From: Nanobdellota archaeon
Lineage (GTDB): Archaea > Nanobdellota > Nanobdellia > Pacearchaeales > GW2011-AR1
Length of the DNA stretch: 34,406 nt
NCBI GenBank assembly: GCA_022709585.1
Contig: JAKLIN010000001.1
Location: 1 to 34,406, forward strand
Direction of reading: 5' to 3'
Shown here: piece by piece, positions 13,228 through 34,406 of the stretch
Layout of the letters: every line of letters begins with the position of its first letter
Position numbering within the stretch: position 1 is the first letter of the stretch
Notes under the pieces: generated by a model
What the model was told of the DNA's origin: nothing
The model's input: the letters and a program-made list of their open reading frames with translations, nothing else
Databases searched by the model: none
Program-made: the position numbers and the translations under genes

Positions 13228-13380
13228 ATGAAACTCAAATTTTTTATTGATTCCAAGAAAAAGAAAGTTTACACTCTTCAAGAAGAGAAAGAAAACAAAA
13301 AAACTCAGGATGCTCATTACAAGTTTATTAAGTTCAAAGACAGAGCTGAACAAGAAGACAATTTGCAAGAGTCAGATTAA
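13228..13380 (+). CDS. nop10: Nop10-like H/ACA RNP protein lacking zinc-ribbon cysteines, 50 aa, absent from the ORF track
   Basis: My translation is MKLKFFIDSKKKKVYTLQEEKENKKTQDAHYKFIKFKDRAEQEDNLQESD. The VYTL and AH..F..(K)D spacing resembles eukaryote-like Cys-less Nop10 (compare ...RVYTLKK...SAHPARFSPDD). An A/T box lies about 24 nt upstream. The stop shares TTAA with the convergent gene, as at two other sites. It lies close to aIF2-alpha, a known archaeal neighbourhood. Confidence 0.4.
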   Translation: MKLKFFIDSKKKKVYTLQEEKENKKTQDAHYKFIKFKDRAEQEDNLQESD

Positions 13381-17680: not shown

Positions 17681-18844
17681 TTAATTAGCTAACCCTGCTT
17701 TTCTTCTCAACTCTCCAGCTTTGTCGGTTTTTTCCCATGAAAATCCCGCTCTTCCGAAATGCCCATAGCTAGCTGTTTTTTCATAAATTGGTTTTTTCAA
17801 ATCTAAATATTGTATAATTGCTTTTGGGCGCAAATCAAATGTTTCTAAAACAACTTGTCTGATTTTTTCTTCTGGAACTTTGTTAGTATTAAAACAGTCT
17901 ATATGAACTGAAACAGGCCTAGCAACTCCAATGGCATAACTAATTTGAATTTCGCATTTATCTGCGAGTTTTGCGGCAACAATATTTTTAGCGATATGCC
18001 TTGCAATATATGCCCCGCTTCTGTCCACTTTTGAAGGATCTTTTCCACTGAAACAACCACCGCCCACTCTTCCAACTCCACCATAACTGTCTACGATTAT
18101 TTTTCTTCCAGTTAATCCAGTATCTCCCTCAGGCCCACCAATAACAAATCTTCCTGTTGCATTAATATGAATCTTAGTTTGTTTGTCAATTAATTTTCCG
18201 CAAGTAGGTACAATAACTTTTTTGTAAATTTCTTTTCTTAGTTTATTTTCACTAACTTGTTTTTTATGCTGCTGTGCAATAACAACTGTATCAATTCTTT
18301 TTGGTTTTCCATTTTCATACTCCACGGTAACTTGAGTTTTTCCATCTGGTCCAAGTCCGTGATTAAATGCTCCGGATTTTCTAAAATCCGCAAGTGCTTT
18401 TGCAAGTTTATGAGCAAAAATAATTGGCATGGGCATTAATTCAGGTGTTTCATTGCAAGCAAAACCATACATCATTCCCTGGTCTCCTGCACCTTGCTCT
18501 TTTTCATCGCCATTTGTTTTTTCATCCACTCCTCGAGAAATATCTGGGCTTTGCGAGTGAATACTTACCCAAACACCTGCATCTTCGTAATCCATTCCAA
18601 ATTCAGGGTCATTATAACCAATCCTTTTCAAAGTCTCTCTTACAGTTTGGTGAATGTCCACAAAACCCTCAGTTGTAACCTCTCCTGCAACATGAACACT
18701 TCCAGTTGTTACAAGAGTCTCGACTGCAACTCTAGAATTAGGATCTTGTGCAATTAATTTATCTAAAATTGCGTCAGAAATTTGGTCGCAGATTTTATCT
18801 GGATGTCCTTCGGTTACAGACTCTGAAGTTATGTAAGTTTTCAT
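17681..18844 (-). CDS. metK: S-adenosylmethionine synthetase, bacterial/eukaryotic MetK type
   Basis: It has [32 protein letters not shown] and [19 protein letters not shown]. It is 387 aa. Confidence 0.95.
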
Positions 18845-22597: not shown

Positions 22598-23326
22598 ATG
22601 CTATTAATTGAAATTTCTGGTAAGAATGGTCTCGGAAAGACTCATGGCGTAGAGCTAGCTCCAAAAGAATTACTTAAAGGAAGTTCGTATTCTTTTTATA
22701 AAAAAATAAATCCAAATAATGGAGATATTGAAGAGCAAGAAAATCAAATTCTAGAGCAATCTAAAGATTTAATGACAAAAAAACCTTTTTTTATCGGAGG
22801 AGATCATTCCATAAGCTACCCGTTAGTAAAAAATTTCATTAAAACTCACAAAAACGCAGGAATTGTCGTTTTAGATGCCCATCCAGATTTAATGCCTCCG
22901 ATGGAAAATCCAACGCATGAAGAATGGTTAGCAGCGGTTATTGAACTCGGATTTAATCCTAAGAATATTTTGTTAATTGGAGCGAGAAACATTGATCCTG
23001 AAGAAGAAAAACACTCTGTTAATAAGATTAAAATATCAGAGTTAAACAATTGTCAAGAAAAATTAAACACTTTTTTAAAAGACAAACAGATTTATTTATC
23101 AATGGATATAGATTTTTTTGATTCTTCAATCGCTTCTGCTACAGGTTATCCAGAAAAAGATGGTGCAACTGAATCTCAAGGATTAACCTTAATCAAACAA
23201 ATAATTCAAAATGGAAATGTTTGCGCAGCAGATTTAGTTGAAGTTAATCCAACAAAACAGAATCCAGAAAAAACAATCGCACTTGCTAAAAAAATAATAA
23301 ATTTAGTTTTAAAGGAAAATAAATAA
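22598..23326 (+). CDS. speB: Ureohydrolase (agmatinase/arginase family), short form
   Basis: It has the Mn-ligand motifs GGDHS, DAHPDL and SMDIDFFD. It is 242 aa. Confidence 0.75.
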   Translation: MLLIEISGKNGLGKTHGVELAPKELLKGSSYSFYKKINPNNGDIEEQENQILEQSKDLMTKKPFFIGGDHSISYPLVKNFIKTHKNAGIVVLDAHPDLMPPMENPTHEEWLAAVIELGFNPKNILLIGARNIDPEEEKHSVNKIKISELNNCQEKLNTFLKDKQIYLSMDIDFFDSSIASATGYPEKDGATESQGLTLIKQIIQNGNVCAADLVEVNPTKQNPEKTIALAKKIINLVLKENK

Positions 23327-23368
23327 AAAATAACAGGAAAAATAAATAAAAACAACAAGGAAAATAAA

Positions 23369-24304
23369 ATGAGAAAAATTAAAGATTTTCAATGGAAACC
23401 AAACTTGACTGTGAAAGAGCTAGTTGACAGCTTCGCAGGATTAGGATATCAATCAATTGAACTTAATGCAGCTAAAGAAGTAGTTGTGAAAATGAAGCGA
23501 GCAGGAGCAAAAATATTCCTTACTTTCACTTCAAATATGACAACTTCAGGATTAAGAGGCTTTTTTGCGCAGCTTTGCGAACTTAAAATTCCAGATGTTA
23601 TTGTTACAACTTCAGGCTCAATTGAAGAAGATATAATGAAATCGCTTGGCGAAAACTTTGAAGTTTCCAGTTTTTATGCTGATGACACTCAGCTTCATGA
23701 AAATGGAGAAAATAGAGTTGGGAATATTTTAATAAGAACAGAAAGCTACATGAAATTTGAAGACAAAATGTTGGAATTGCTGGAAAATATTTACAAAAAA
23801 ACTCCAAGAATCTCTTCCTCAGAATTATTGAAAGAAATTGGGTTACTGATTAAAGATAAAAATTCCCTACTGTATCAAGCAGCAAAAAATAATATCCCAA
23901 TTTATTGCCCTGGAATTGCGGATTCTTCTTTAGGATTCCATTTGTTCATGTTCCAACAAAAACACAAGGATTTTATTGTGGACACAATTTGGGATATGCA
24001 AAGGGTTGTCACAGACTTAGGATTTGATGAAAAGAAAGGCTTAATCTCTCTCGGAGGGGGAATTTCCAAGCATTATGCAATATTCTCTGCGCTTCTTTCA
24101 GGAGGATTTGATTATGCTGTTTATTTAACAACATCTCATGCTTCCTCCGGCTCAATTTCCGGAGCAACAACTCAAGAAGCAAAATCTTGGGGAAAACTTA
24201 AAGATAATGCAGAAGCAGCAACAGTAAATGGAGACGTTACAATAATTTTCCCTCTTTTGATGTGCGCGGTTTTAGATGAATTAAAATCTCAAAAAATTAT
24301 TTAA
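23369..24304 (+). CDS. dhs: Deoxyhypusine synthase
   Basis: It is 311 aa. It has GGGISKH and the catalytic-lysine context QEAKSWGKL. Confidence 0.9.
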   Translation: MRKIKDFQWKPNLTVKELVDSFAGLGYQSIELNAAKEVVVKMKRAGAKIFLTFTSNMTTSGLRGFFAQLCELKIPDVIVTTSGSIEEDIMKSLGENFEVSSFYADDTQLHENGENRVGNILIRTESYMKFEDKMLELLENIYKKTPRISSSELLKEIGLLIKDKNSLLYQAAKNNIPIYCPGIADSSLGFHLFMFQQKHKDFIVDTIWDMQRVVTDLGFDEKKGLISLGGGISKHYAIFSALLSGGFDYAVYLTTSHASSGSISGATTQEAKSWGKLKDNAEAATVNGDVTIIFPLLMCAVLDELKSQKII

Positions 24305-24307
24305 TCA

Positions 24308-25357
24308 ATGCACATGGCAGAAGCAAAATTCATTCTCTCAAAGTCTAAGTTAATTGAACAATTAAATGTTTTAGAAAAACTGAAATTAAAAATTTCATAC
24401 AGTTACAAAACCAATCGAGAAGTTGGAGATATTCTTCAAGATGTTTCTAATTGCGATTTTTCTATTCATGCTAAAGAAGAGATTGAAAAAATAAAAAATA
24501 AAAATAAAATCTGGTTTTTTAGCCAGGCAGAATCAGTAGATGAACTTGAGAACATCCTTAAAAAAGGTGTAAGAAACTTCGTAGTTGACAATGAAATAGA
24601 TTTTCAAAGAATTCTCGAGGCAATAAAAAAAACAAAGATAAAAATAAATCTCTCTTTAAGAATGAAACTTCAAGAGCACAGAATTGGAAGCGAAAAATAC
24701 TTTGTTTATGGAATGCCCTCGAAAAAAGTGAATGATTTAATTAAAGAAATAAAAGACAACAAACTAATTGAAATATTAGGCATTCATTTGCACAGAAAAT
24801 CTCAAAACACAAGTGAATGGGAGATAAAAAAAGAGCTTGAAGATTCCATAGACTCTGAAAATTTCAAAAGAATAGATTTAGTGAACATTGGGGGCGGGCT
24901 TCCAGTGGAATATCGCTCTTTTACCTCAAAAGTAATGCCTTATATCTTTGAAAAAATAATTGAAGCGCGAGATTTTCTAAAAAAATACAACATAGAAACT
25001 TACATTGAGCCTGGAAGATTTTTAGCTGCACCTTGCATTAAACTTGAAACAGAAATAATTCAAATTCAAGAAAAGAATATAATAATTAATACCACAATTT
25101 ACAACTGCGCATTAGATACGATTCTTACAGGAACAAAAATGCTTGTTGAACAAGAAATTTCCGAGGATAAACCGGGAGATTTTTATCTTATAAAAGGGAA
25201 TTCTCCTGCCAGAGATGACATATTCAGATACAAAGTAAAGCTAAGCAATCCAAAAGTCGGCGATAAAATCACATTCATGAACGCAGGAGCATATAATTAT
25301 ACCACAGATTTCTTTGGTTATAAAAAACTTAAAACTGAGACTGTAGAAAAGTTTTAA
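24308..25357 (+). CDS. PLP-dependent Orn/Arg/Lys/DAP-type decarboxylase (group IV, alanine-racemase fold)
   Basis: It has the PLP lysine context YSYKTN, NIGGGLPVEY and EPGRFLAAP. It is 349 aa. The start may be the ATG at 24314. It lies 3 nt downstream of dhs. Confidence 0.75.
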   Translation: MHMAEAKFILSKSKLIEQLNVLEKLKLKISYSYKTNREVGDILQDVSNCDFSIHAKEEIEKIKNKNKIWFFSQAESVDELENILKKGVRNFVVDNEIDFQRILEAIKKTKIKINLSLRMKLQEHRIGSEKYFVYGMPSKKVNDLIKEIKDNKLIEILGIHLHRKSQNTSEWEIKKELEDSIDSENFKRIDLVNIGGGLPVEYRSFTSKVMPYIFEKIIEARDFLKKYNIETYIEPGRFLAAPCIKLETEIIQIQEKNIIINTTIYNCALDTILTGTKMLVEQEISEDKPGDFYLIKGNSPARDDIFRYKVKLSNPKVGDKITFMNAGAYNYTTDFFGYKKLKTETVEKF

Positions 25358-25358
25358 G

Positions 25359-26222
25359 TTAAAAAGGAAATATTTGAAATAAGACGTCTGAGATTGGAAA
25401 AACAAAGAAGTAAACCAGAATAAGAAATACAAAACTTACTAAGAATACAGGTACAAAAGGTATTCCTTTTTTAATTTTAACAAACTTTTTATTTTGCTGA
25501 ATCAGCTTAATCTCTTTTTGAGTTAATCCTTCCCATTTTGCGAGTATCTTTTTGTTTCCAATTAAAATAGGTTTATACAACCAGTCTCCTTCCCTGAGAG
25601 ATTTAACATCTACTACTCGAACCATACAAGATTCATCTATTGCTTTTACAATTAAGTAAGTAAAAGGACTGAAGAAAACAAAAATTCCTGAATAAATAAT
25701 AATTTCTTGACTAAAAAGCCCAAGCAACATGATTAAAACTCCAAGTGCCATAACCAATAAGATTTCTTTTTTATTTTTAGAAAATAACTTTGAAAATTCT
25801 TTTTTAACTTCGATTTTATTTTTTATAGCAAAATAACTGCTAGTAAATATTCCAAAAAAAGCTCCTGAAATTAAAAAAAGTGCTAGAAATGCGAGGAATA
25901 GTTTTATATTTTCAACAAAATTAAAAGAGAAGGGAAGAATTGTTCCTAAAGCAATCATAAGCTTTGCGTCTCCTCCAGCAAACATCTTGGAGTAATAAAA
26001 AACATTTCCTAAAACAAAGAAGATTCCTAATCCAATAAGTCCTTGAAAAAAGAAACTGAAATTTCCTAAAGCAAATAAACTATAAAAAAATCTGAATCCC
26101 AAAGCAAAAGCGATAAGTGAAAAGTTAAGCCAGTCGGGAACTTCTGTTGTTTTTACGTCGTGGATTGAAGCAAAAGTCAACCAAATTAGTGCAAGTGCCA
26201 TTAAGAAAATCACTTCAATCAT
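25359..26222 (-). CDS. Class III signal peptidase (A24 family prepilin/preflagellin peptidase, FlaK/PibD-like)
   Basis: It is polytopic. The first catalytic Asp lies in ASIHDVKTTEVPD and the second in FAGGDAKLMIALG. A soluble insert precedes the last TM, which has GIPFVPVFL. It is 287 aa. Confidence 0.85.
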   Translation of the reverse strand: MIEVIFLMALALIWLTFASIHDVKTTEVPDWLNFSLIAFALGFRFFYSLFALGNFSFFFQGLIGLGIFFVLGNVFYYSKMFAGGDAKLMIALGTILPFSFNFVENIKLFLAFLALFLISGAFFGIFTSSYFAIKNKIEVKKEFSKLFSKNKKEILLVMALGVLIMLLGLFSQEIIIYSGIFVFFSPFTYLIVKAIDESCMVRVVDVKSLREGDWLYKPILIGNKKILAKWEGLTQKEIKLIQQNKKFVKIKKGIPFVPVFLVSFVFLILVYFFVFPISDVLFQIFPF

Positions 26223-26296
26223 TATTCAAAAAGGCGAATTTCGTTTAAATATCTATTTAAAATCTAAAAAAGCTAAACCCTGAGTATGACAAAAAA

Positions 26297-27457
26297 TTAT
26301 TTTTTAATGGCAATGAAAGTGCTCAATTTTCTTGCTCCTTCGCCAGATTTTAAAGGTTCAAAGATGAATATTTGATTATTGAAACTCATCTGACTGCTTC
26401 CCCCTCCATCAAGATTCATTGCTTCCACACAACCCAAAGATTGCATAAGATTAGAAAGCTCCCAGAGGTATAAATTTTTAGAATAAACTCCAACCAATTT
26501 TACCAGTCCTTCAGAGGTAATTCCTACTGCACTTTTCGCACGATTACTAAACAAGATATCATCAGGAAAATTTTCTGAGTTTGCCAAAATCAGTTTTTCT
26601 AAAGAAAAATCTTCCTGCCCTGGCTGAGCTTCCGGAAAAAGATTTGGACCTGCTCCGAGAAGATAATTATAACTATATCCTTGGTTATTTGCGCTTCTTT
26701 TGCATCTCGGAGTTAATTCACTAAGGTTATTTACCCCTTGAAGAATATCTGCCAAAACAAATAAAGAACCTTCTGGACTTATCTTGCCTTTTAATGCAAA
26801 CACAGCCCGAGCAAGAGGAATTCCTTGTTTTAACAAAACATTGGCTTTATTACATCCATCCATGAAAAGAATTCCCCCAACTTGTCTTGGATCGCTTAAA
26901 CAGAAATATCCTCCGTTTATTCCGTCCCGGTTAGTTTCTTTTAGCGACTTGCCAGGATTATAAATTATTTCTAATTGTTCTGGAAGAGCTGTGATAACTT
27001 CCCCTATTTTTATTTTAGCTTCCTTATCTTGGTAAATAGTATTTAGGTAAGGAAACTCGCTAATTCTTGGCTCCAAAAAAACAGGATTAGAAGAAGCATA
27101 CCCGATAAGGTTCAATTTGCCTTTTTCTAGATAAGTTAGCTCAACTAAATCTTTTTGAGAGGTCTCTTTCAATTCATAAACAGGGGGAGATTCACAAGAT
27201 TTTTCGTATTTAATCGTAGGGGTAGCTTGAGGATATTCTAATTTTTTTGGAGATAGCACACTTTCTAAAGAAGAATTTGAAACATATTCTGGAATTGTTT
27301 CTGCAGAACTTATTGGATTTCCAGAGGTTGCAAGACTTACGGAACTTGTCGAAAAAATGGGGGGATTAGGAATTAATGCTTCTGCATTGCTACAACGATT
27401 GCCTACGCTCATTGCAAGCAAAATACCTGCTAGAGCTTCCATCGCCCTCTTTTTCAT
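26297..27457 (-). CDS. Secreted phosphodiester glycosidase-like protein (NAGPA/DUF2233-like)
   Basis: It has the N-terminal signal-like MKKRAMEALAGILLAMSVG, a Ser/Pro-rich linker, and the C-terminal AMNLDGGGSSQM motif characteristic of the family. It is 386 aa. Confidence 0.6.
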   Translation of the reverse strand: MKKRAMEALAGILLAMSVGNRCSNAEALIPNPPIFSTSSVSLATSGNPISSAETIPEYVSNSSLESVLSPKKLEYPQATPTIKYEKSCESPPVYELKETSQKDLVELTYLEKGKLNLIGYASSNPVFLEPRISEFPYLNTIYQDKEAKIKIGEVITALPEQLEIIYNPGKSLKETNRDGINGGYFCLSDPRQVGGILFMDGCNKANVLLKQGIPLARAVFALKGKISPEGSLFVLADILQGVNNLSELTPRCKRSANNQGYSYNYLLGAGPNLFPEAQPGQEDFSLEKLILANSENFPDDILFSNRAKSAVGITSEGLVKLVGVYSKNLYLWELSNLMQSLGCVEAMNLDGGGSSQMSFNNQIFIFEPLKSGEGARKLSTFIAIKK

Positions 27458-27649
27458 TTATCCTAAAAACCAAAAAAGATTTTTAATCATTTCTACAGTC
27501 AAGAAGTATATTCCTCGAAGATAAATTCTTAGAACTAGATTTCTTCGTTTGTTCGTTGTTTTCCGCCATGTCGGTAAGGAAACTTCTTTCTATTCTTACG
27601 TTTATCTTTTCCCTTATTTCTTTTGTCCGGAACTGCATAGTCTGCCATT

Positions 27650-28717
27650 TTACGAACCACACTTCCCATCTTTGCAAGACTGATAAATATTATCTAATTC
27701 AAGGTATCTGAAAGAAACTTTTTCTACATAATCGGAATGATAATCTCCACAACCAACATATTTTCTTAGAATATGACTAAGAGGGGTGTATTTCTCATAA
27801 GGATGAGTATATTCAAAACCAGAAACCTGATCACAATTTGGGTAACTAGCTTTATTGTTTATAAAATAAACTCCCCTAAAGATCGCATATTCTGGGTCAA
27901 AAAGCGCACTATTGCTCCTACTACAAGATAAAGTTCTAGAAGTAATGCCTTTAAATTTATTCAAAAAAACGCCGCTATCACAAGCATTAGAGTTTATCTG
28001 CATTAATCCCAGATAATTATCCCCCAGAGAATCATCATCAAGGGGATGAGCAATACAACTAGACTCTTGCATTATAACAGATAAAACCAAGAGAGGATCT
28101 AATGAAGAACCTGTTTTTTCGCGAACAGAATCTGTAACAGTTTGATCTGTTTTAAGATATTCAATGTATTTAATTAAATACTCTGCATAATCATCACATC
28201 TTGTGCCGCAAGAACACGTTCTGTCTCCAACAGCATGATCCTTAAGGTAATTTAACAAAAATTTTAACGTTTCAAGGTCCCGCTTTTCACTAAACATATT
28301 TACATAAATATTGGTTCCAGCTCCGCTCCCCGTCCCACTCCCAGTTCCAGAGCCACCACCAGTTCCAGGATCACTGCCACCCGTAGAAGGATCTACTCCC
28401 GTGCAATCAATCCCCGGACATTTTTTAACAGTTCCAGAATATTTTTGAGAAGTCGAAAGGCTATAGCAGGTTTCTTTTTCAGGTGTTTCTTTTCCTTTGA
28501 TTATGACATTTCGTTCGCGAGTGCAAAATTCACTTTTAAGCTTTGCTAAGCAAACTAAAGAACAGTGATCCTTGATTATTGCGAGATTATTATCTAATTC
28601 AGTTTCTTCTCTAAAAAAACGCCAGTTAGTAGAAAATCCCAAAGCAAGAAAACCGATGATTAATAAAGAGATTATAATTGCCATTAAAAATCCGGAAGTA
28701 ATCCCTTTTTTATCCAT
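27650..28717 (-). CDS. Pilin-like leader + 6-Cys module + G/S/T linker + SLT (GH23) lytic transglycosylase domain
   Basis: MDKKG is followed by a hydrophobic helix. The module is C-x3-C-x8-C-x18-C-x15-C-x4-C. The linker is GVDPSTGGSDPGTGGGSGTGSGTGSGAG. SLT motifs are VIMQESSC (E codon at 28064-28066) and GLMQIN (27996-28010). Confidence 0.7.
   Translation of the reverse strand: MDKKGITSGFLMAIIISLLIIGFLALGFSTNWRFFREETELDNNLAIIKDHCSLVCLAKLKSEFCTRERNVIIKGKETPEKETCYSLSTSQKYSGTVKKCPGIDCTGVDPSTGGSDPGTGGGSGTGSGTGSGAGTNIYVNMFSEKRDLETLKFLLNYLKDHAVGDRTCSCGTRCDDYAEYLIKYIEYLKTDQTVTDSVREKTGSSLDPLLVLSVIMQESSCIAHPLDDDSLGDNYLGLMQINSNACDSGVFLNKFKGITSRTLSCSRSNSALFDPEYAIFRGVYFINNKASYPNCDQVSGFEYTHPYEKYTPLSHILRKYVGCGDYHSDYVEKVSFRYLELDNIYQSCKDGKCGS
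28455..28495. repeat. 41-nt near-identical segment shared with 31436-31476 (37/41 identical)
   Basis: The sequences are gaaaggctatagcaggtttctttttcaggtgtttcttttcc and gaaaggctataacaagtttctttttcaggcgtttcctttcc. On the minus strand both encode GKETPEKETCYSLS. Confidence 0.8.
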
Positions 28718-28738
28718 AAAAGGATAAGTTTAACTTAA

Positions 28739-28746
28739 TTTATAAG
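28739..28746 (-). promoter_or_regulatory. TATA-like box for the SLT gene
   Basis: The box tttataag is centred about 25.5 nt upstream of the ATG at 28717. The whole upstream block aaaggataa...aatttataa.tatta is shared with the next paralogue. Confidence 0.5.
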
Positions 28747-28779
28747 TATTATTAATTCAAAAAGAAATTAATCTTTTGT

Positions 28780-31707
28780 TTAATAAGGGGAACTTTTTGA
28801 AATTAACTCTATTTTATCTAAGAGTATTTTTTGGTTGATTGGCCCGTAAGATTCCGCGAGCCTATGATCTGACATCATGGAATTCATTGTTGCTCGAATG
28901 TTTAATGGATTATAACCACATCCCAGGAAGTAACATACAAACTCATCTTCAGTTAAATCAGGATTCTTAATTTTTTCTTCCTCAAATCTTTTTATGCAAG
29001 ATTCTCCATATGTTTCCAGAGGATTTGTCAAATCTTTAGGATAAGGAGAGTTTATAGAATTTGCTTTCCACCAGCTAGATCTATCTTCTTGTCCTGTTTC
29101 GGGATTTACATACTCAAGATATTCTGGATCTCTAGAGAGAGTTAATTCCCCTATTGGAGGTGCTAAGTCTTTCCAGACTCCTGCTCCATAAACGCTAGGA
29201 TTTGCTTGAATCAGTACATCACTTTCAACGCAAGTTTTTCCTTGAGGCCTATCATAAGCATAAAGAGAGGGGTTTGATTCTCCAGAAATTTCTTCTTTAA
29301 TTTCTTTCCAAGAATAATAATATTCATCTTCTAACTTTCCAAAAGAATGCCCAAATTCGTGAAGAATCATTCTCGCTCTGTCATTTCTATACCCGCAAGA
29401 TAAAGAAAGTGCAAAAGTACTTGCTGCTGCTGCAGAACGAAATCTTTCTTTTTTATAAAGAATTATAACACTGTCTGCATTTTTTAAATTCAATGATTGT
29501 GCAAGACTTTGAGAAATTGTCGAGTACTCCAAATTGTCGGGATGTTTTTCTTCAAAATAAGAAGAATCCCAGTACCAATCAAATAAAAATTGATTGCCTG
29601 CTCCCCCGAGGTACATTCTGCCACCAACTGTTGCAGAAGAATGGCAATTAGTCTTTGGAGGAAGCACTGTCGGAGTTTCTTTAACTAACTCTGCCCAGAT
29701 ATTGAACTGGTCTTGATGGGTTTTAAACGGTTCCATTTCAAAGAAACTTAGGTAATTCTCTTCATCATTTTCTTTAAACAAGTATTCAACTTCCTTTTTT
29801 AATTCTTCAAGTGCAGAATATCCTACTCCTCGGATTACAATATCAATTTTATCTTTGCGTAATTGATAAGGCTCGTCTGTACCAGAAGAAGGCAAAACAA
29901 GAATCCTATTAGAATAATATTTTTCAACGCACTTATTGAGATTTACGTTACAATCTAAATAAGGATAACAATCCCAATCGGTTTTGCAAAAGTCTCCTGC
30001 TTGAATTTCTTTAAAACTTTCTACATCGCTCCAGTGTAAAACTGGAACTGTTTGAGTCTCTGAAGGAGTTTTTTCTTTCAAATCTTTTAAATCTGGAGCT
30101 TCAATTATTCCATTGTAAAACAAATCTTGAACATTATCTTCGGAAAATTCATTCTCGGAGAGATACTCTTCAGATCTTATTTTTTTTAGGGTATTGTCAT
30201 ATAACCGGAATATTCCTCCGTAAAGAATAGCAACTTCTTCAACATAATAGATATGCGTGCTGCCTTGGGCAGGATCGTATTCAAAAGGACTTGCACCAGG
30301 AATATTTTCACAAAGCCCCTTTTTTCGCGTCTTGCTATCATAATCTCTTAAAGCAGCATTAAAAGAAAAATAATCTTCATATCTAGAAACTCCTTTTTCT
30401 GCACAACCTCGAATTTGTTCTTTTGTGAAGCCCATTCGATTTTTTTCATAAGAAGATTCTAATTCTTTAATTTCTCTTTCAAGATCTACCAGAGAATTAA
30501 TATTTTCACTTTCTTGAACCAAAAATGCTAAATATAAAAAAGGATCTTGATAACTTTTATCTAAGGTGTGCTCTGATAGTCTCAGAATTTTATCCGCATA
30601 CTTTACACAGCTAATGGGAGAATCTTCATTAGTAAAATCACAATTTAATTTTTTGTTTATATTTTTCCAAGTTTCTGTGGAATAATCGTAAATCATGCTA
30701 GGAAATCCTGTTCTACTAGAAGTTTTAACAAGAGCTTCAAATAAGTCTTTCTCTTGAGAAGAAGCTCTATCAATAGTCTTTATTCCCCTCATTAAGGTCA
30801 CTAAAGCGTTTTTAAATGCATACCATTTACCTTGAGAGTCCACTAAATAAAAGTAGTAAACTAAAAATCTGCCAGAATCTGAAGGCATTTCAACATCTAC
30901 TGAGATTAAGTTTCCTTTAATTTTAGCAAAGTTTTTGTCAAATACATTTCCTATTGAACTTACAGAAAATCCAAATTGGTCTGTGACAATTAAATTAAAC
31001 TCCCCCAGATTATTTTCTGCATGATCGACAGATTCATCTGCTACCCATCTTGAATTGAATTCGTTATTCTGATTTTGTTTATTTACTACCTTTAATTTAA
31101 TTCTTGCAAATTCTCTCGGTAAAGGCGTAGAATATTCTGTTGTGAAAGAATTAACTTCTCCTACTTCAAAAGAGTGCAATTCAAGTAGACTTTCTAAATC
31201 TGTTGCTTTTCCGGAAATAGGAGCAACCAAATTTTCTGGATCTGAAACCTTAAAATAATTGTTAAAAACGAAGGTGTTTTGCTTAGAAACTTTTTCGATT
31301 TGAGATGCTTGATAAGTTAATTCCTCTTGTAAAATCTTTTCTAAATCTATTTCTTCAGGCAAAAGAACCATTCCACTTCCTTCACAAATAATATTAGAAC
31401 AATAAGAAATAATATTGGAATATTCTGAAGATTTTGAAAGGCTATAACAAGTTTCTTTTTCAGGCGTTTCCTTTCCGTTTATTGTCACTTGGCGTTCTAA
31501 AGTACAAAAAAGCTGTTTTGAGTTGGTCAAACAAGCATTAGAACATTGAGATTTAATATCCCCTAAGTTATTCTGAGAACTGCTTTCTCCAAATGTATCT
31601 CTAAAAAAAGACCAATTTGTAGATATTCCGTATGAAACAAAAAGAATAACCACTAAAGAAGTTATAACTAAAAAAATAATTTTAGATCCTATTCCTCTTT
31701 TATTCAT
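28780..31707 (-). CDS. 975-aa mosaic secreted protein: pilin-like leader + 6-Cys module + beta-rich region + divergent lysozyme-like domain + Cys knot + M64-like zinc metallopeptidase
   Basis: It has the MNKRG leader. GKETPEKETCYSLS is identical to the SLT paralogue. YLAFLVQESE lies at 30505-30534. DFCKTDWDCYPYLDCNVNLNKC lies at 29929-29994. HEFGHSFGKLEDEY lies at 29320-29361. Confidence 0.65.
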   Translation of the reverse strand: MNKRGIGSKIIFLVITSLVVILFVSYGISTNWSFFRDTFGESSSQNNLGDIKSQCSNACLTNSKQLFCTLERQVTINGKETPEKETCYSLSKSSEYSNIISYCSNIICEGSGMVLLPEEIDLEKILQEELTYQASQIEKVSKQNTFVFNNYFKVSDPENLVAPISGKATDLESLLELHSFEVGEVNSFTTEYSTPLPREFARIKLKVVNKQNQNNEFNSRWVADESVDHAENNLGEFNLIVTDQFGFSVSSIGNVFDKNFAKIKGNLISVDVEMPSDSGRFLVYYFYLVDSQGKWYAFKNALVTLMRGIKTIDRASSQEKDLFEALVKTSSRTGFPSMIYDYSTETWKNINKKLNCDFTNEDSPISCVKYADKILRLSEHTLDKSYQDPFLYLAFLVQESENINSLVDLEREIKELESSYEKNRMGFTKEQIRGCAEKGVSRYEDYFSFNAALRDYDSKTRKKGLCENIPGASPFEYDPAQGSTHIYYVEEVAILYGGIFRLYDNTLKKIRSEEYLSENEFSEDNVQDLFYNGIIEAPDLKDLKEKTPSETQTVPVLHWSDVESFKEIQAGDFCKTDWDCYPYLDCNVNLNKCVEKYYSNRILVLPSSGTDEPYQLRKDKIDIVIRGVGYSALEELKKEVEYLFKENDEENYLSFFEMEPFKTHQDQFNIWAELVKETPTVLPPKTNCHSSATVGGRMYLGGAGNQFLFDWYWDSSYFEEKHPDNLEYSTISQSLAQSLNLKNADSVIILYKKERFRSAAAASTFALSLSCGYRNDRARMILHEFGHSFGKLEDEYYYSWKEIKEEISGESNPSLYAYDRPQGKTCVESDVLIQANPSVYGAGVWKDLAPPIGELTLSRDPEYLEYVNPETGQEDRSSWWKANSINSPYPKDLTNPLETYGESCIKRFEEEKIKNPDLTEDEFVCYFLGCGYNPLNIRATMNSMMSDHRLAESYGPINQKILLDKIELISKSSPY
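31436..31476. repeat. Partner copy of the 28455-28495 segment
   Basis: See the partner entry. The four mismatches are all transitions. Confidence 0.8.
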
Positions 31708-31728
31708 AAAAGGATAAACAAATTCGAA

Positions 31729-31737
31729 TTTATAAAT
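31729..31737 (-). promoter_or_regulatory. TATA-like box for the 975-aa gene
   Basis: The box tttataaat is centred about 26 nt upstream of the ATG at 31707. Confidence 0.5.
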
Positions 31738-31767
31738 ATTAGGAGGATTAATCCAATTTTTTAGAAT

Positions 31768-32934
31768 TTATTTAAGTTTTTGATCATATAAATCTGAAAG
31801 TCTTCCATAAAGATACATTACTTCTTCTACATAAAAAGTGCTTCTACCAGAACAATATGCTTCAGTCTGAGCCCAAGAGGCCCTCAATGCAGAGTTATAT
31901 TCTTTATAATAAGTATATCTTCGATTTCCAATACTCCAACAAGATTCAAGAAAATCTTTATTTAAACCATTTTTGTAAGAATTATATTTTTCCTGAGTCG
32001 TTTTTGCCAGAGGTCCGATAGTCTCGGGGAAATCCTTGTTACATCCTCCTCGAATTGCCCTAGCTAATAAAAGAAGAGGGTCTTCAATTCCATAGGTTGA
32101 TGCAGCCTCAACTGTTTTCTCAGCGTAAAGCCCGCAATCGTTGCCACATTCACATTTTTTGTACTTAAACTGCCATCGACTCAAGTCGTGGTCATATTCT
32201 ATAACACTTATTCCGTTCGTGGAAGAAGAAATATTTTTCAATACTTCTGCGATAATTATTGGATTATTTCTTAGATTATCCTCGCTCTCAGAAGGTTTAT
32301 TCCATAAAGTAATCAAACTGTTATTAACCCTGCTAAAATGATAATTTTTATCCAGAATAACAAAATAAAATTTTATCCATTCTCCGATTTTATTAGGGAG
32401 TACGGCGGTGACCTTTGCAACCGAATTAGTTTTTGAATCATATTCCAAGGAGTAAATCTCTTTTTGAATTGCTCCTTCTGAAGAATCTTCTAAAACAAAA
32501 ACAATTTTTTCCCAGTTAGACTCATTGAATCTCTCTTCTAAGTTCTTTAAATAAAAAGTGGTTTCTTCTCCTGCAACAGAATTTTCATACCAGGATTCAA
32601 ATAGACGATTTTCAGGGCAAAGATCTGGACATTGGTCAATTTTTCCTGCAAAATCTCCTGCAATTATCCAAGAATAGTATTCGCAAGTATTGTACAACTG
32701 TTTTCTTCTTCCCAAGCTTAATTCTCTTTTTTCTTGACAAAAGTCATAAGACTGCTCTTGTTCGCAAAAATGAGCACATCTTTCTTTCACTTCTGCAACA
32801 TTATTTTTTTTAAACCAACTAGAAAAATTTAATGCTAAGAAAACAAAACCAGAAATAATTAATCCCGTTGCAAGAAGAATCAAAACTAATCTAACAGTTT
32901 CGTCTTGAACCAACTCTCCTTTTTTGTTCATCAT
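31768..32934 (-). CDS. Pilin-like leader + 6-Cys module + beta-rich region + lysozyme-like domain lacking the catalytic Glu (paralogue of the 975-aa protein N-terminal half)
   Basis: It has an (M)MNKKG leader. It aligns with the 975-aa protein through WIKFYFVILD / FLVYYFYLVD and STFYVEEVMYLYG / THIYYVEEVAILYG. It reads ARAIRGGC (32041-32064) where the paralogues have QES. The start may be the second ATG at 32931. Confidence 0.55.
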   Translation of the reverse strand: MMNKKGELVQDETVRLVLILLATGLIISGFVFLALNFSSWFKKNNVAEVKERCAHFCEQEQSYDFCQEKRELSLGRRKQLYNTCEYYSWIIAGDFAGKIDQCPDLCPENRLFESWYENSVAGEETTFYLKNLEERFNESNWEKIVFVLEDSSEGAIQKEIYSLEYDSKTNSVAKVTAVLPNKIGEWIKFYFVILDKNYHFSRVNNSLITLWNKPSESEDNLRNNPIIIAEVLKNISSSTNGISVIEYDHDLSRWQFKYKKCECGNDCGLYAEKTVEAASTYGIEDPLLLLARAIRGGCNKDFPETIGPLAKTTQEKYNSYKNGLNKDFLESCWSIGNRRYTYYKEYNSALRASWAQTEAYCSGRSTFYVEEVMYLYGRLSDLYDQKLK

Positions 32935-32951
32935 TCATCAAAGTAAAAAGG

Positions 32952-32960
32952 ATTTATAAT
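32952..32960 (-). promoter_or_regulatory. TATA-like box for the 388-aa gene
   Basis: The box atttataat is centred 25 nt upstream of the ATG at 32931 and 22 nt upstream of the ATG at 32934. Confidence 0.45.
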
Positions 32961-32978
32961 CTTTTTTAGTAAATTTAA

Positions 32979-33995
32979 TCATTTAGGCAAGAGATATTCT
33001 TCAGCATAACTATCGATTCCTTTAGCAATCCCTTCAGCTATTGCTTCTTGATATCCGACTGTAGCTAATCTTTTCCCTTCTGCGTCATTTGTTATAAAAC
33101 CAATTTCAACTAAAGAAGAGGCATAAGGACTTTTGCAGTTTAAAACAGCTAAAGGATCTTTACCAATTTCTTTGTCGCTTTTTACTTTTCTGTCTAAAAC
33201 CAAACTCGACACAACCGAAAGAGATTTAAGATATTCATTTGCAGAAGAGATTACTTTAGGATGAACAGAGTTAGCTAAGTTTTTTGATGCGATTCTTAAA
33301 TCATTTGTTCTGTAAATGGTTTCTATTCCATTTGCAGCGGCGTCCTGAGCGGCATTACAATGAACAGATACAAGAATATCTGCTTGAAGTGCTACGGCTT
33401 GTGCACATCGAGATTCCAATGAAACAGACTTATCAATTATTCTCGTGAAATCAATATTATTCTTATTATAACCTAAGGCTACCAATTTTTGCTTGACTTT
33501 CAAAGCAACATCTAAATTAATACTTTTTTCATAGATTCCCCCAACACCAATAGCTCCAGGGTCAGTTCCGCCGTGGCCCGGATCAAGAACGATAAAAACA
33601 TCGGATTTTGAGTATATCTCTCCTCTTAACATTCTTTGAGCAAGCTTATCTTTTTCGTTAACTACAGGGACACAATCTCCGAAATCAGGACATTTATCAA
33701 TTAATCCCTTGTATCCTTCTTCATCTGTTTGAGAAAAATAATAACAAGTTTCGTATATTTTCTCTCGCATACTAAGAATTATCTCTCTTTTTTGATTACA
33801 GAAATCATATTCTCCAGAATTTCCTTGACTACAAAAACGAGAACACTGGTCTTGAATTGTTTTCACATTGTTGCTTGGGAACCAACTAGAAAATCCAAAC
33901 CATTGCGTGGTAAAACCTGCTACTAAAAAAGCTAAGAACAAAAGAGCTGCAATAAGACCCACCGTAGCTTCCAAAGTCATTCCTCTTTGATTCAT
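32979..33995 (-). CDS. Pilin-like leader + 6-Cys module + N-acetylmuramoyl-L-alanine amidase (Amidase_3)
   Basis: I place the start at the ATG at 33995 (MNQRG...), not the TTG at 34010 used by the ORF track. Amidase_3 motifs are VLDPGHGGTDPGA, YEKSINL, VSVHCNAA and LVEIGFITN. Confidence 0.85.
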   Translation of the reverse strand: MNQRGMTLEATVGLIAALLFLAFLVAGFTTQWFGFSSWFPSNNVKTIQDQCSRFCSQGNSGEYDFCNQKREIILSMREKIYETCYYFSQTDEEGYKGLIDKCPDFGDCVPVVNEKDKLAQRMLRGEIYSKSDVFIVLDPGHGGTDPGAIGVGGIYEKSINLDVALKVKQKLVALGYNKNNIDFTRIIDKSVSLESRCAQAVALQADILVSVHCNAAQDAAANGIETIYRTNDLRIASKNLANSVHPKVISSANEYLKSLSVVSSLVLDRKVKSDKEIGKDPLAVLNCKSPYASSLVEIGFITNDAEGKRLATVGYQEAIAEGIAKGIDSYAEEYLLPK

Positions 33996-34015: not shown

Positions 34016-34025
34016 GTTTATAATC
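34016..34025 (-). promoter_or_regulatory. TATA-like box for the amidase gene
   Basis: The box gtttataatc is centred about 25.5 nt upstream of the ATG at 33995, and only about 10 nt from the TTG at 34010. Confidence 0.45.
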
Positions 34026-34097: not shown

Positions 34098-34388
34098 TTA
34101 AGCAACAGTATATCCCCATAGTTCAGGGTTTGCTCTTTCTACAAATGCCCCTTTCAATTCACCTTCTTCATCACAGAAATCAACTACAGAAGTACATTTG
34201 TAATCAAACACTTTTGACCAAATAGGGTGTTCTGTAAGTTGTTGACAGGTATAATCAGTTACAGATGTCCCTGTTTTGATTGTAATAAATCCTAAGATTT
34301 TCTTCCCCATATAACCTTCTTTAATTATTTCATACTCTTGATATCTTAAATAAAGATTCATAACATTTTCGAAGTCATCTGCACTCAT
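34098..34388 (-). CDS. Hypothetical protein, 96 aa
   Basis: It is an intact ORF with an ATG start and typical codon bias. No motif was recognised. It contains 3 Cys. Confidence 0.4.
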   Translation of the reverse strand: MSADDFENVMNLYLRYQEYEIIKEGYMGKKILGFITIKTGTSVTDYTCQQLTEHPIWSKVFDYKCTSVVDFCDEEGELKGAFVERANPELWGYTVA

Positions 34389-34406
34389 TGTTGTTTCTTT
34401 ACTGAA

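What the first reader, a model, noticed from the sequence alone, without database searches (positions are those of the whole stretch)
25359..33995. Cassette of pilin-leader-fused murein hydrolases next to a class III signal peptidase in an archaeon
Seen: there are six co-directional minus-strand genes, each with its own TATA-like box. In transcription order they are: (1) leader + 6-Cys module + Amidase_3; (2) leader + module + degenerate lysozyme-like domain; (3) leader + module + lysozyme-like (QES) domain + HEFGH zinc peptidase; (4) leader + module + canonical SLT domain (QES...GLMQI); (5) a signal-peptide phosphodiester-glycosidase-like protein; (6) an A24 prepilin/preflagellin peptidase with both catalytic Asp motifs. 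Genes 1-4 start with M-[ND]-[KQ]-[KR]-G followed (directly in three; after 9 polar/charged residues in the 388-aa protein) by a 20-25-residue hydrophobic helix. That is the format cleaved by archaeal class III signal peptidases after the Gly. Established: Amidase_3 and SLT/GH23 act on bacterial peptidoglycan (the MurNAc-L-Ala bond and the MurNAc-GlcNAc glycan). Archaea do not make murein. Archaea route some non-pilin surface proteins through class III signal peptides, for example the Sulfolobus sugar-binding proteins. Horizontally acquired lysozymes used against bacteria have been reported in archaea. Inference: this is a dedicated system that anchors or displays a complementary set of murein-cleaving enzymes on the cell surface or on a pilus-like fibre. 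The enzymes cover the glycan, the stem-peptide link, the peptide and the polymer linkage. Its role would be breaching, adhering to or scavenging bacterial cell walls, which would point to a bacterial partner or prey for a DPANN-like archaeon. I am not aware of this leader + Cys-module + hydrolase architecture having been described.
Basis: partly seen in the sequence, partly recalled or inferred. Interest (0 to 1): 0.9.

Follow-up and report, generated by a model that had tools for sequence, protein, structure and literature searches.

The report
Pilin-fused cell-wall hydrolases in Pacearchaeota
A tiny DPANN archaeon has turned the pilin gene that normally sits beside its prepilin peptidase into four pilin-enzyme fusions carrying bacterial cell-wall-cutting domains, and related archaea do the same inside complete type IV pilus operons, which suggests these archaea use a pilus to attack or hold on to bacteria.

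Summary
Six co-directional minus-strand genes (25359-33995) encode four proteins with an M-[ND]-[KQ]-[KR]-G leader, a hydrophobic helix and a shared 6-Cys module. These are fused to Amidase_3, to an inactive-looking SLT-derived domain, to an SLT-derived domain plus an M64 metallopeptidase, and to an SLT domain. A Sec-type NAGPA protein and an A24 prepilin peptidase follow.

New here:
- The 6-Cys module is a large family of small (100-200 aa) pilin-like proteins restricted to Woese-/Pace-/Nanoarchaeota.
- In 67 of 73 species-representative loci its gene lies next to an orthologue of this peptidase, in all but one immediately upstream on the same strand.
- In all five loci inspected in detail it sits at the end of an operon of ATPase, 9-TM platform and 6-8 pilins.
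- Four different pilin paralogues of that operon have been fused to SLT or Amidase_2 domains in other genomes.

The cassette is therefore an elaborated end of a type IV pilus locus built from "modular pilins".

Cleavage, assembly and peptidoglycan activity remain inferred. Any peptidoglycan role for the M64 and NAGPA proteins is speculative. Peptidoglycan hydrolases in these archaea and modular pilins in bacteria are both published. I found no report of the combination. It is a new variant of a known kind, with interest about 0.68.

The parts
32979..33995 (-). g1: modular pilin of 338 aa. It has a class III-type leader (MNQRG|M), a 6-Cys pilin module (aa 1-110 = 33666-33995) and an Amidase_3 domain (aa 135-328 = 33012-33593).
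   Evidence: Pfam Amidase_3 at 143 bits. PDB 4rn7 at 5e-20 and CwlV 1jwq, with the GHGG, E, SVHCNA and VEIGF motifs aligned. Module profile hit at 5e-30. An 80% identical orthologue, P0002, exists in another sample.
31768..32934 (-). g2: modular pilin of 388 aa. It has a leader (MNKKG|E), a 6-Cys module (32605-32934), a beta-rich middle domain and an SLT-derived domain in which Gly replaces the catalytic Glu (RGG). It is probably non-catalytic.
   Evidence: Alignments. SLT-family profile at E=3e-10. hhalign against the pilin-SLT family gives probability 98.8%, E=5e-17. The orthologues P0208 and P0265 keep a Glu at that position.
28780..31707 (-). g3: modular pilin of 975 aa. It has a leader (MNKRG|I), a 6-Cys module (31375-31707), a beta-rich domain plus an SLT-derived domain with QES (aa 111-560 = 30028-31377), a Cys-knot motif and an M64-like zinc peptidase (Pfam hit aa 618-803 = 29299-29856; HEFGHSFG).
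   Evidence: Pfam Peptidase_M64 at 35.9 bits. PDB 4df9 and 3p1v. Alignment A8 and hhalign. No full-length homologue other than itself.
27650..28717 (-). g4: modular pilin of 355 aa. It has a leader (MDKKG|I), a 6-Cys module (28394-28717), a disordered Gly/Ser/Thr linker (aa 108-139) and an SLT/GH23-like domain with QES, GLMQIN and YVEKV motifs (Pfam stretch aa 204-290 = 27848-28108).
   Evidence: Pfam SLT at 17.8 bits, below the cut-off. Archaeal pilin-SLT profile at 5e-11. Aligns with 6-Cys+SLT proteins of L075, L152 and L154, which pass the Pfam cut-off. AF2 model and Foldseek were inconclusive.
26297..27457 (-). g5: secreted protein of 386 aa with a Sec-type signal peptide and a NAGPA / phosphodiester-glycosidase-like C-terminal domain (aa 297-384 = 26306-26569; NLDGGGS motif). 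It is found only in this lineage's cassette.
   Evidence: Pfam NAGPA at 61.4 bits. PDB 6u11, 5h3k and 6pku. Absent from the other 150+ loci.
25359..26222 (-). g6: A24 prepilin/preflagellin peptidase of 287 aa. It has about 7-8 TM segments and catalytic D22 and D85 (GGD).
   Evidence: Pfam Peptidase_A24 at 46.9 bits. TM and motif scan. Orthologues at E=1e-45 to 1e-94 lie next to the 6-Cys pilin gene in 67 of 73 GTDB loci, directly downstream on the same strand in all but one.
34017..34024 (-). TATA-like box ATTATAAA starting 29 nt upstream of the g1 start codon. Equivalent boxes lie at 32953-32960 (g2), 31729-31736 (g3), 28738-28745 (g4), 27480-27487 (g5) and 26254-26261 (g6).
   Evidence: The position is consistent (motif start 26-30 nt upstream of the start codons of g1-g5, 39 nt for g6). 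The genome is AT-rich, so the evidence is weak.
34098..34406 (-). 3' end of an upstream gene that runs off the window. It is not a pilin. It is homologous to the protein of at least 232 aa upstream of the g1 orthologue in L078.
   Evidence: phmmer 2e-22. It marks the upstream limit of the cassette in this lineage.

Best explanation
The six genes are the distal end of a Pacearchaeota type IV pilus (T4P) locus. In relatives, one small 6-Cys pilin gene sits directly upstream of the prepilin peptidase gene. Here that position holds four diverged paralogues of the pilin (30-53% identical to one another). Each is fused to an effector module, most of bacterial cell-wall-hydrolase ancestry.

Proposed mechanism:
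1. The precursors insert into the membrane by their hydrophobic helix.
2. The adjacent A24 peptidase cuts after the leader Gly.
3. The mature N-terminal helix acts as the pilin assembly interface. The pilus ATPase and platform, encoded elsewhere in this genome, place the fusions at the tip of, or along, a pilus, or hold them at the cell surface.
4. The displayed Amidase_3 and SLT modules cleave the MurNAc-L-Ala bond and the glycan strand of a bacterium's murein. The catalytically dead g2, the beta-rich domains, the M64 peptidase and the NAGPA enzyme act as binding or accessory factors.

The purpose would be to adhere to, breach or feed on bacterial cells.

Shown: the domain identities, the homology of the module to a pilin-like family, its conserved linkage to the peptidase and the pilus machinery, and recurrent independent pilin-hydrolase fusions.

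Inferred: cleavage, incorporation into a filament, activity on peptidoglycan and the ecological role.
For: (1) Module family. A module profile finds 816 cluster representatives among 1.8 billion, 228 of them at E<=1e-10. Nearly all are 100-200 aa proteins with the pattern M..KRG|QGLST + about 22 hydrophobic residues + 6 Cys. Leaders end in RG or KG, and +1 is Gln in 94 of 116. This matches the KG|Q processing sites of Methanococcus Epd pilins, and KG|IS of Sulfolobus UpsB resembles g3 and g4 (PMC4371748).

(2) Module structure. With 143 sequences the AF2 model reaches pLDDT 87. It shows a 31-residue N-terminal helix and a small head.

(3) Distribution and linkage. All 73 GTDB loci come from Woese-/Pace-/Nanoarchaeota MAGs, except one labelled Bacillota. 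In 67 of the 73 an A24 orthologue lies next to the pilin gene, in all but one (L045) directly downstream on the same strand, followed by the same HIT-aEF1beta-RPA-YdjM-RadA genes as in the window.

(4) Pilus machinery. In all five loci inspected in detail, the genes upstream are a 9-TM platform-like protein of about 720 aa and 6-8 small proteins with class III leaders. A T2SSE ATPase precedes them in the three loci checked by Pfam. L152, from a 683-kb contig, has the whole operon ending in two small 6-Cys pilins, a 6-Cys+SLT fusion and A24.

(5) Recurrent fusions. 6-Cys+SLT occurs in L074, L075, L152 and L154. g2-like fusions occur in L074 and L075. The 'KRG|DIPITILVIG' pilin is fused to SLT in L070 and in at least 30 protein clusters, all with QES and GLMQ. 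The 'KKG|DKIISVYWF' pilin is fused to Amidase_2 in L008, L010, L012, L024, L095 and L097, and to SLT in L018. The 'KRG|NIL..' pilin is fused to SLT in L095 and L097. In loci that hold both genes, the SLT gene is always upstream of A24 on the same strand.

(6) Peptidase specificity. The operon's other pilins carry D, E, N, A or F at +1 with a single peptidase gene in the locus, so a relaxed +1 specificity is plausible.

(7) No wall synthesis seen. The window has no mur genes. Murein is reported to be absent from these archaea (PMC8204110).
Against: - No pilus ATPase, platform protein or unfused 6-Cys pilin lies in the 34-kb window. The gene upstream of g1 is an unrelated protein.
- The four fusions lack the family's usual +1 Gln. 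If the peptidase were EppA-like and strict for Gln, they would stay uncleaved.
- The module head matches no solved pilin (best Foldseek E=6.9).
- g4 is below the Pfam SLT cut-off, and its model gave only non-significant endolysin and SLT matches.
- g2 lacks the catalytic Glu. The g2 and g3 domains lack the GLMQ segment.
- No recognisable peptidoglycan-binding domain is present.
- Cargo of up to 860 residues may not fit into a filament.
- All cultivated DPANN have archaeal hosts (my own knowledge).
- Only about 6-8 of the 73 representative loci carry any pilin-hydrolase fusion, so it is a minority trait.
Confidence: 0.55

Rival explanations
1. Surface-anchored ectoenzymes, similar to the bindosome. 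The class III leader is cleaved, but the proteins stay as membrane-anchored or short pseudopilus-like arrays at the cell surface, like the Sulfolobus sugar-binding proteins. They digest murein fragments or bacterial walls on contact rather than being carried on an extended fibre.
For: Archaeal non-pilin proteins with class III leaders are assembled this way (PMC4371748). The cargo is large, up to 975 aa. No unfused major pilin or ATPase lies in the window.
Against: The carrier is not just a leader. It is a complete copy of a conserved pilin (helix plus 6-Cys head), whose unfused form lies in pilus operons. Other pilin paralogues of the same operon carry the same kinds of enzyme. Bacterial modular pilins with bulky modules do enter filaments (PMC8179133).
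Confidence: 0.25
2. Secreted soluble enzymes. The pilin module only serves for export. The catalytic domains are released by proteolysis in the flexible linker, or by a type II-secretion-like piston, and diffuse to target bacteria as bacteriolytic weapons.
For: g4 has a disordered Gly/Ser/Thr linker of about 30 residues. Secreted archaeal peptidoglycan hydrolases that kill bacteria are known (PMC12352652).
Against: No release mechanism is evident. g1 has only a short linker. Conservation of the whole disulfide-rich head in every fusion argues that the carrier has a structural role.
Confidence: 0.1
3. Uncleaved type II signal anchors. The N-termini are ordinary membrane anchors, and the neighbouring peptidase serves other pilins or archaellins. 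The adjacency is only a leftover of descent from a pilin gene.
For: +1 is M, E, I and I instead of the family's Gln. EppA-type peptidases require +1 Gln (PMC4371748).
Against: The [KR]G motif is kept in all four proteins and in the fusions of other lineages (+1 Asp in L074 and L075). Pilins with many different +1 residues share the single peptidase of the locus. UpsB is cut at KG|IS by PibD.
Confidence: 0.07
4. Housekeeping autolysins. The archaeon makes its own murein-like wall and uses these enzymes to remodel it or to let its pilus pass through. This would parallel the specialised lytic transglycosylases of bacterial pilus and secretion systems.
For: Bacterial T4P, T3SS and T4SS loci often include a dedicated SLT enzyme (my own knowledge).
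Against: There are no mur genes in the window. The literature reports murein as absent from these lineages (PMC8204110; PMC12352652). The enzymes are fused to the exported subunit, not kept at the base.
Confidence: 0.03

Closest known systems
Modular type IV pilins of bacteria (e.g. Streptococcus sanguinis PilB with a vWA module and PilC with a lectin module; Raynaud et al. 2021, PMC8179133)
   Same: A small N-terminal pilin module with a class III signal peptide carries a bulky functional module attached through a linker. The gene lies in the pilus locus with the prepilin peptidase. Many different modules are grafted onto pilins.
   Different: The organism is an archaeon. The carrier is a 6-Cys head with no solved counterpart. 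The cargo is catalytic and wall-degrading (Amidase_3, SLT, Amidase_2 in relatives, M64) rather than adhesive. Four such fusions are arrayed in tandem. The passages of the 2021 survey that I read mention neither archaea nor murein hydrolases.
Archaeal class III signal peptide proteins that are not pilins (Sulfolobus sugar-binding proteins / the bindosome; PibD substrates)
   Same: Large functional proteins carry a prepilin-type leader, are processed by an A24 peptidase and are positioned by T4P-like machinery.
   Different: In Sulfolobus only the leader and helix are pilin-like, and the proteins are thought not to derive from pilins. Here a whole pilin paralogue is retained. The cargo is hydrolytic, not solute-binding.
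Peptidoglycan hydrolases of archaea, including the large extracellular SLT proteins of Pace-/Woesearchaeota (PMC8204110, PMC9723730) and the bactericidal Halogranum enzymes (PMC12352652)
   Same: Bacterial-type murein hydrolase domains occur in archaea that lack murein. They have been interpreted as tools for attaching to, killing or feeding on bacteria, and are prominent in Nanoarchaeota.
   Different: Those studies considered Sec/Tat signals or no signal, and (Strock et al.) required a wall-binding domain. None reported fusion to pilins or placement in the T4P operon. The window's proteins would have been missed by both criteria.
Specialised lytic transglycosylases of bacterial pilus and secretion loci (VirB1, BfpH, EtgA type; my own knowledge)
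   Same: An SLT-family enzyme is encoded inside a filament or secretion operon.
   Different: The bacterial enzymes are separate periplasmic proteins that open the producer's own sacculus. Here the domain is part of the exported subunit, and the producer has no sacculus.

Membership tests
Archaeal type IV pilin / class III signal peptide protein (g1-g4 N-termini) | A short basic leader ending in Gly/Ala, followed by about 20 hydrophobic residues | tested here: met
   The leaders are MNQRG|, MNKKG|, MNKRG| and MDKKG|, each followed by a hydrophobic stretch. They resemble the known sites KG|Q and KG|IS. The FlaFind program itself was not run.
Archaeal type IV pilin / class III signal peptide protein (g1-g4 N-termini) | An extended N-terminal alpha-helix carrying a globular head | tested here: met
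   The AF2 model of the g1 module has pLDDT 87, a helix at 8-38 and a small alpha/beta head. The same layout appears in the g4 model. The head matches no solved pilin.
Archaeal type IV pilin / class III signal peptide protein (g1-g4 N-termini) | Encoded together with the prepilin peptidase, assembly ATPase and platform protein | tested here: inconclusive
   The peptidase is adjacent in the window. The ATPase and platform are absent from the 34 kb window. They are present upstream of the homologous pilin in relatives: L016, L041, L068 and L152.
Archaeal type IV pilin / class III signal peptide protein (g1-g4 N-termini) | Cleaved by an A24 peptidase and polymerised into a filament | not testable with these tools
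   This needs N-terminal mass spectrometry and pilus preparations.
Modular type IV pilin | A complete pilin module joined by a linker to an independently folding module found elsewhere without a pilin | tested here: met
   The module is homologous to stand-alone pilins of 100-200 aa. The Amidase_3, SLT and M64 domains occur widely without it. The linker is disordered in the g4 model.
Amidase_3 N-acetylmuramoyl-L-alanine amidase (g1) | Pfam PF01520 above the gathering score, with the zinc ligands and catalytic Glu | tested here: met
   The score is 143 bits against a cut-off of 27. GHGG, E(K), SVHCNA and VEIGF align with 4rn7 and CwlV. Enzyme activity was not tested.
SLT / GH23 lytic transglycosylase (g4) | Pfam PF01464 above the gathering score | tested here: not met
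   g4 scores 17.8 bits against 21.3. Orthologous 6-Cys+SLT proteins pass: L075 at 31.5, L154 at 26.4 and L152 at 23.9 bits.
SLT / GH23 lytic transglycosylase (g4) | A catalytic Glu in an E-S motif plus the GLMQ and Y..V motifs, and a lysozyme-like fold | tested here: inconclusive
   The QES, GLMQIN and YVEKV motifs are present and aligned with family members. The fold search gave endolysin and SLT hits only at E>0.6, on a model with pLDDT 68.
SLT / GH23 lytic transglycosylase (g2 and g3 domains) | Homology to SLT with the catalytic machinery intact | tested here: not met
   The homology is real: hhalign probability 98.8%, E=5e-17. However, the GLMQ segment is deleted in both. g2 has Gly at the catalytic Glu position, while g3 keeps QES.
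Peptidase M64 (g3 C-terminus) | Pfam PF09471 above the gathering score, with the HExxH zinc site | tested here: met
   The score is 35.9 bits against 26. HEFGHSFG aligns to 4df9 and 3p1v. The substrate is unknown, and no link to peptidoglycan was shown.
NAGPA / phosphodiester glycosidase (g5) | Pfam PF09992 above the gathering score | tested here: met
   The score is 61.4 bits against 25, but only profile positions 87-168 are covered. The NLDGGGS motif aligns with 6u11 and 6pku. A role on wall-polymer linkages was not tested.
Peptidase A24 prepilin peptidase (g6) | Pfam PF01478 above the gathering score, two catalytic Asp (the second in GxGD) and a polytopic membrane protein | tested here: met
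   The score is 46.9 bits against 26.5. D22 and D85 (GGD) are present, with about 7-8 TM segments.

The most novel reading that the evidence does not exclude
Pace-/Woesearchaeota use a type IV pilus whose subunits carry murein amidase and lytic transglycosylase modules as an enzymatic grappling hook or drill. The pilus binds a bacterium and locally dissolves its sacculus, giving the archaeon access to the bacterial cytoplasm or wall material. That would be a molecular mechanism for cross-domain (archaeon-on-bacterium) episymbiosis or predation. The fused pilins would also serve as a genomic marker for finding which DPANN lineages have bacterial rather than archaeal hosts.
Probability: 0.35. 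Interest if true: 0.85.

Novelty: new variant of a known kind. Interest (0 to 1): 0.68.

Why it matters
The hosts and lifestyle of Pace- and Woesearchaeota, which are among the most abundant uncultured archaea, are an open question. Murein hydrolase genes have been the main hint that some of them interact with bacteria. How such enzymes would leave the cell and reach a target was unknown. In the recent survey of archaeal peptidoglycan hydrolases, about two thirds had no recognised signal peptide.

Some of these enzymes are built onto pilins of a conserved type IV pilus operon, next to the processing peptidase. This provides a concrete, testable delivery route. It gives a searchable signature (pilin leader plus hydrolase, upstream of A24) for predicting lineages that target bacteria. 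It extends the 'modular pilin' principle to archaea and to catalytic cargo. It also defines a large, unannotated family of 6-Cys pilins specific to Woese-/Pace-/Nanoarchaeota, with a head fold that has no solved relative.

Tried and rejected
- A homologue search with g3 minus its module returned only g3 itself.
- A metagenome scan with the g2/g3-type alignment found no relatives.
- Foldseek on the full g4 model (pLDDT 68) gave only non-significant endolysin and SLT matches.
- Foldseek on the confident module model gave no match at all. Structure therefore neither proves nor disproves a pilin fold for the head.
- A composite alignment intended for a full-length g1 model misaligned the bacterial amidases and was dropped.
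- NCBIfam gave nothing for g2-g6 or for the small pilin.
- Pfam gave nothing for the platform-like protein of about 720 aa. It is called a platform only from its nine predicted TM segments and its position after the ATPase gene.
- The sigma-70 promoter and terminator scans were at or below shuffle expectation and do not apply to an archaeon.
- My first phmmer count of 'Amidase_2' loci was inflated by hits to the pilin part of the query. Only proteins of at least 329 aa were kept, and the Pfam-confirmed ones are cited.
- I considered prophage or mobile-element origin and rejected it. G+C is even across the window, there are no integrase or phage genes, and core-gene synteny is conserved on the downstream side.

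Full report
**Observation.**
The window is a chromosomal fragment of a low-G+C (about 32%) archaeon. It encodes RadA, aIF2-alpha, RPA, GINS, deoxyhypusine synthase and an SRP54/FtsY pair. NCBI labels it Candidatus Pacearchaeota.

Pfam gives the following:
- g1: Amidase_3, 143 bits.
- g2: nothing.
- g3: Peptidase_M64, 35.9 bits.
- g4: SLT at 17.8 bits, below the 21.3 cut-off.
- g5: NAGPA, 61.4 bits.
- g6: Peptidase_A24, 46.9 bits.

g1-g4 begin with M-[ND]-[KQ]-[KR]-G and a hydrophobic helix. In g2 the helix comes after nine polar residues. All four share a module of about 108 residues with six aligned Cys. g6 has D22 and a GGD motif at D85. Each gene is preceded by a TATA-like box, starting 26-30 nt upstream of the start codons of g1-g5 and 39 nt upstream of g6. 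This is suggestive only, because the DNA is AT-rich. The same cassette was assembled independently from three samples.

**What the module is.**
A profile of the four modules was searched against 1.8 billion cluster representatives. It found 816 proteins, 228 of them at E<=1e-10. Almost all are stand-alone proteins of 100-200 aa with the pattern M..KRG-QGLST, about 22 hydrophobic residues, then NNVD.I...C...C......Y.FC...R.L...TC......YGI..C..I.C. They have no Pfam or NCBIfam family.

In the loci collected, the leaders end in RG or KG, and +1 is Gln in 94 of 116. That is the processing motif of the Methanococcus Epd pilins. KG|IS of Sulfolobus UpsB resembles g3 and g4 (PMC4371748).

With 143 sequences, AlphaFold gives pLDDT 87. 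The model has a 31-residue N-terminal helix and a small disulfide-rich head. This is the pilin 'lollipop' outline, but the head has no solved structural relative.

**Genomic setting of the family.**
A scan of one genome per GTDB species returned 73 loci. All are from Woese-/Pace-/Nanoarchaeota MAGs, except one labelled Bacillota.

In 67 of the 73, an orthologue of g6 (E=1e-45 to 1e-94) lies next to the small 6-Cys pilin gene. In all but one (L045) it lies directly downstream on the same strand. The same HIT, aEF-1beta, RPA, YdjM and RadA genes that lie downstream in the window then follow.

I inspected five loci in detail. In all five the upstream genes are a protein of about 720 aa with nine predicted TM segments (platform-like) and six to eight small proteins with class III-type leaders. 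A T2SSE-family ATPase precedes them in the three loci that I checked by Pfam. This is a type IV pilus operon whose last two genes are the 6-Cys pilin and the prepilin peptidase.

The window therefore carries, at the position of that last pilin, four diverged paralogues (30-53% identical) that are all fused to large domains, plus an extra NAGPA gene. Compared with relatives, an agmatinase / deoxyhypusine synthase / decarboxylase trio is also inserted downstream of the peptidase.

**Recurrence.**
The fusions are not unique to this contig.
- L075 carries a g2-like protein (P0265), a 6-Cys+SLT protein and the A24 peptidase, with the same downstream synteny. L074 carries the g2-like P0208 and a 6-Cys+SLT protein before the contig ends. 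In both, a small 6-Cys pilin precedes the fusions.
- L078 has an 80% identical g1.
- L152, from a 683-kb contig, shows the whole operon: ATPase, platform, minor pilins, an SLT-bearing pilin, two small 6-Cys pilins, a 6-Cys+SLT fusion and A24.
- Three other pilin paralogues of the operon have also captured wall hydrolases:
  - 'KRG|DIPITILVIG' is fused to SLT in L070 and in at least 30 protein clusters, all with QES and GLMQ.
  - 'KKG|DKIISVYWF' is fused to Amidase_2 in L008, L010, L012, L024, L095 and L097, and to SLT in L018.
  - 'KRG|NIL...' is fused to SLT in L095 and L097.
- In the loci that hold both an SLT protein and the peptidase, the SLT gene always lies upstream on the same strand. 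Its product nearly always has a class III-type N-terminus.
- In the unbiased GTDB set, 6 of 73 loci have a Pfam-confirmed fusion and two more have weak ones. It is a recurrent minority trait.

**The effector domains.**
- g1's amidase keeps the zinc ligands and the catalytic Glu. It aligns best with short, stand-alone amidases (4rn7, CwlV). Its nearest relatives are bacterial, at 38-41% identity.
- g4 aligns over QES, GLMQIN and YVEKV with the SLT fusions that pass Pfam. Its model was too weak for a decisive fold match.
- g2 and g3 share a beta-rich domain and an SLT-derived domain (hhalign probability 98.8%, E=5e-17) that lacks the GLMQ segment. g2 has also lost the catalytic Glu, whereas g3, P0208 and P0265 keep it.
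- g3's M64 domain has HEFGHSFG. A Sec-type M64-like protein follows the peptidase gene in L016.
- Nothing ties M64 or the NAGPA protein to peptidoglycan.

**Mechanism.**
The best-supported reading is that these are modular pilins. The A24 peptidase removes the leader. The pilin helix then lets the T4P machinery present the enzyme modules on a pilus or at the cell surface. There the amidase and the lytic transglycosylase act on the murein of a bacterium.

The linkage and homology steps are shown. Processing, assembly, activity and target are inferred.

Caveats:
- There is no ATPase, platform or unfused pilin in the window.
- The fusions do not have Gln at +1.
- The cargo is large.
- No wall-binding domain is recognisable.

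Rivals:
- A bindosome-like surface array (0.25).
- Release as soluble enzymes (0.10).
- Uncleaved signal anchors (0.07).
- Housekeeping autolysins (0.03).

**Comparison and novelty.**
Murein hydrolases in Pace-/Woesearchaeota, and the idea that they indicate bacterial hosts or prey, are published (PMC8204110; PMC9723730; PMC12352652). The last of these looked only for Sec/Tat signals, found none in 68% of the proteins, and required a wall-binding domain.

Modular pilins are established in bacteria, with adhesive modules (PMC8179133). Class III leaders on non-pilin proteins are known in Sulfolobus. The 2016 census of archaeal T4P could not identify cognate pilins for one ATPase clade found in nanoarchaea, and the words DPANN, Woesearchae- and hydrolase do not occur in its text (PMC4858521).

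Seven literature searches found no description of pilin-fused murein hydrolases in archaea. I rate this a new variant of a known kind, of clear interest to specialists in DPANN biology and type IV filaments.

Noticed in passing
window 33666-33995 and homologues (P0124-P0269; L001-L073 around position 8001): The 6-Cys small pilin is a large unannotated family specific to Woese-/Pace-/Nanoarchaeota: 816 cluster representatives with no Pfam or NCBIfam model. Its confidently predicted head (pLDDT 87) has no structural match in the PDB.
   Followed up: yes
window 34098-34406; L159 1-309; L160 2-295: Three independent assemblies of this cassette all break 300-400 bp upstream of g1, inside the same unknown gene. 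That gene's homologue in L078 is at least 232 aa. This suggests a repeat or a strain-variable region just upstream.
   Followed up: partly
window 22598-25357: An agmatinase-like gene, deoxyhypusine synthase and a PLP-dependent Orn/Arg decarboxylase form a polyamine/hypusine trio. It is inserted between the A24 peptidase and the HIT gene, which are adjacent in related genomes (L075 and many GTDB loci).
   Followed up: partly
window 17681-18844: The S-adenosylmethionine synthetase is of the bacterial/eukaryotic MetK type (S-AdoMet_synt N/M/C domains) in an archaeal genome. It is probably another bacterial acquisition.
   Followed up: no
window 13377-14606: This 409-aa protein has no Pfam family but is conserved in at least 11 related loci at a syntenic position.
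   Followed up: no
L016 9508-11598: A 696-aa Sec-signal protein with many Cys-rich repeats and an M64-like HEFGHSFG site lies directly after the A24 peptidase in a Woesearchaeota MAG. It echoes the M64 module of g3. A similar Cys-knot motif (C..D.DC.....C....CV) occurs in g3, P0208 and P0265.
   Followed up: partly
L019 3309-4361: A 350-aa protein with an N-terminal hydrophobic helix and a Laminin_G_3 (ConA-like lectin) domain lies inside the same pilus operon. It is a possible adhesive modular pilin.
   Followed up: no
L054 (DATKUW010000085.1): This contig is labelled 'Bacillota bacterium' but carries the archaeal 6-Cys pilin, the A24 orthologue and the usual archaeal synteny. It is probably a mis-binned contig.
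   Followed up: no
P0189 / L077 66-1769: A 567-aa protein joins the 6-Cys module to a helical domain with an HEGLH motif (weak DUF6782 metallopeptidase hit). This is another cargo type on the same carrier.
   Followed up: partly
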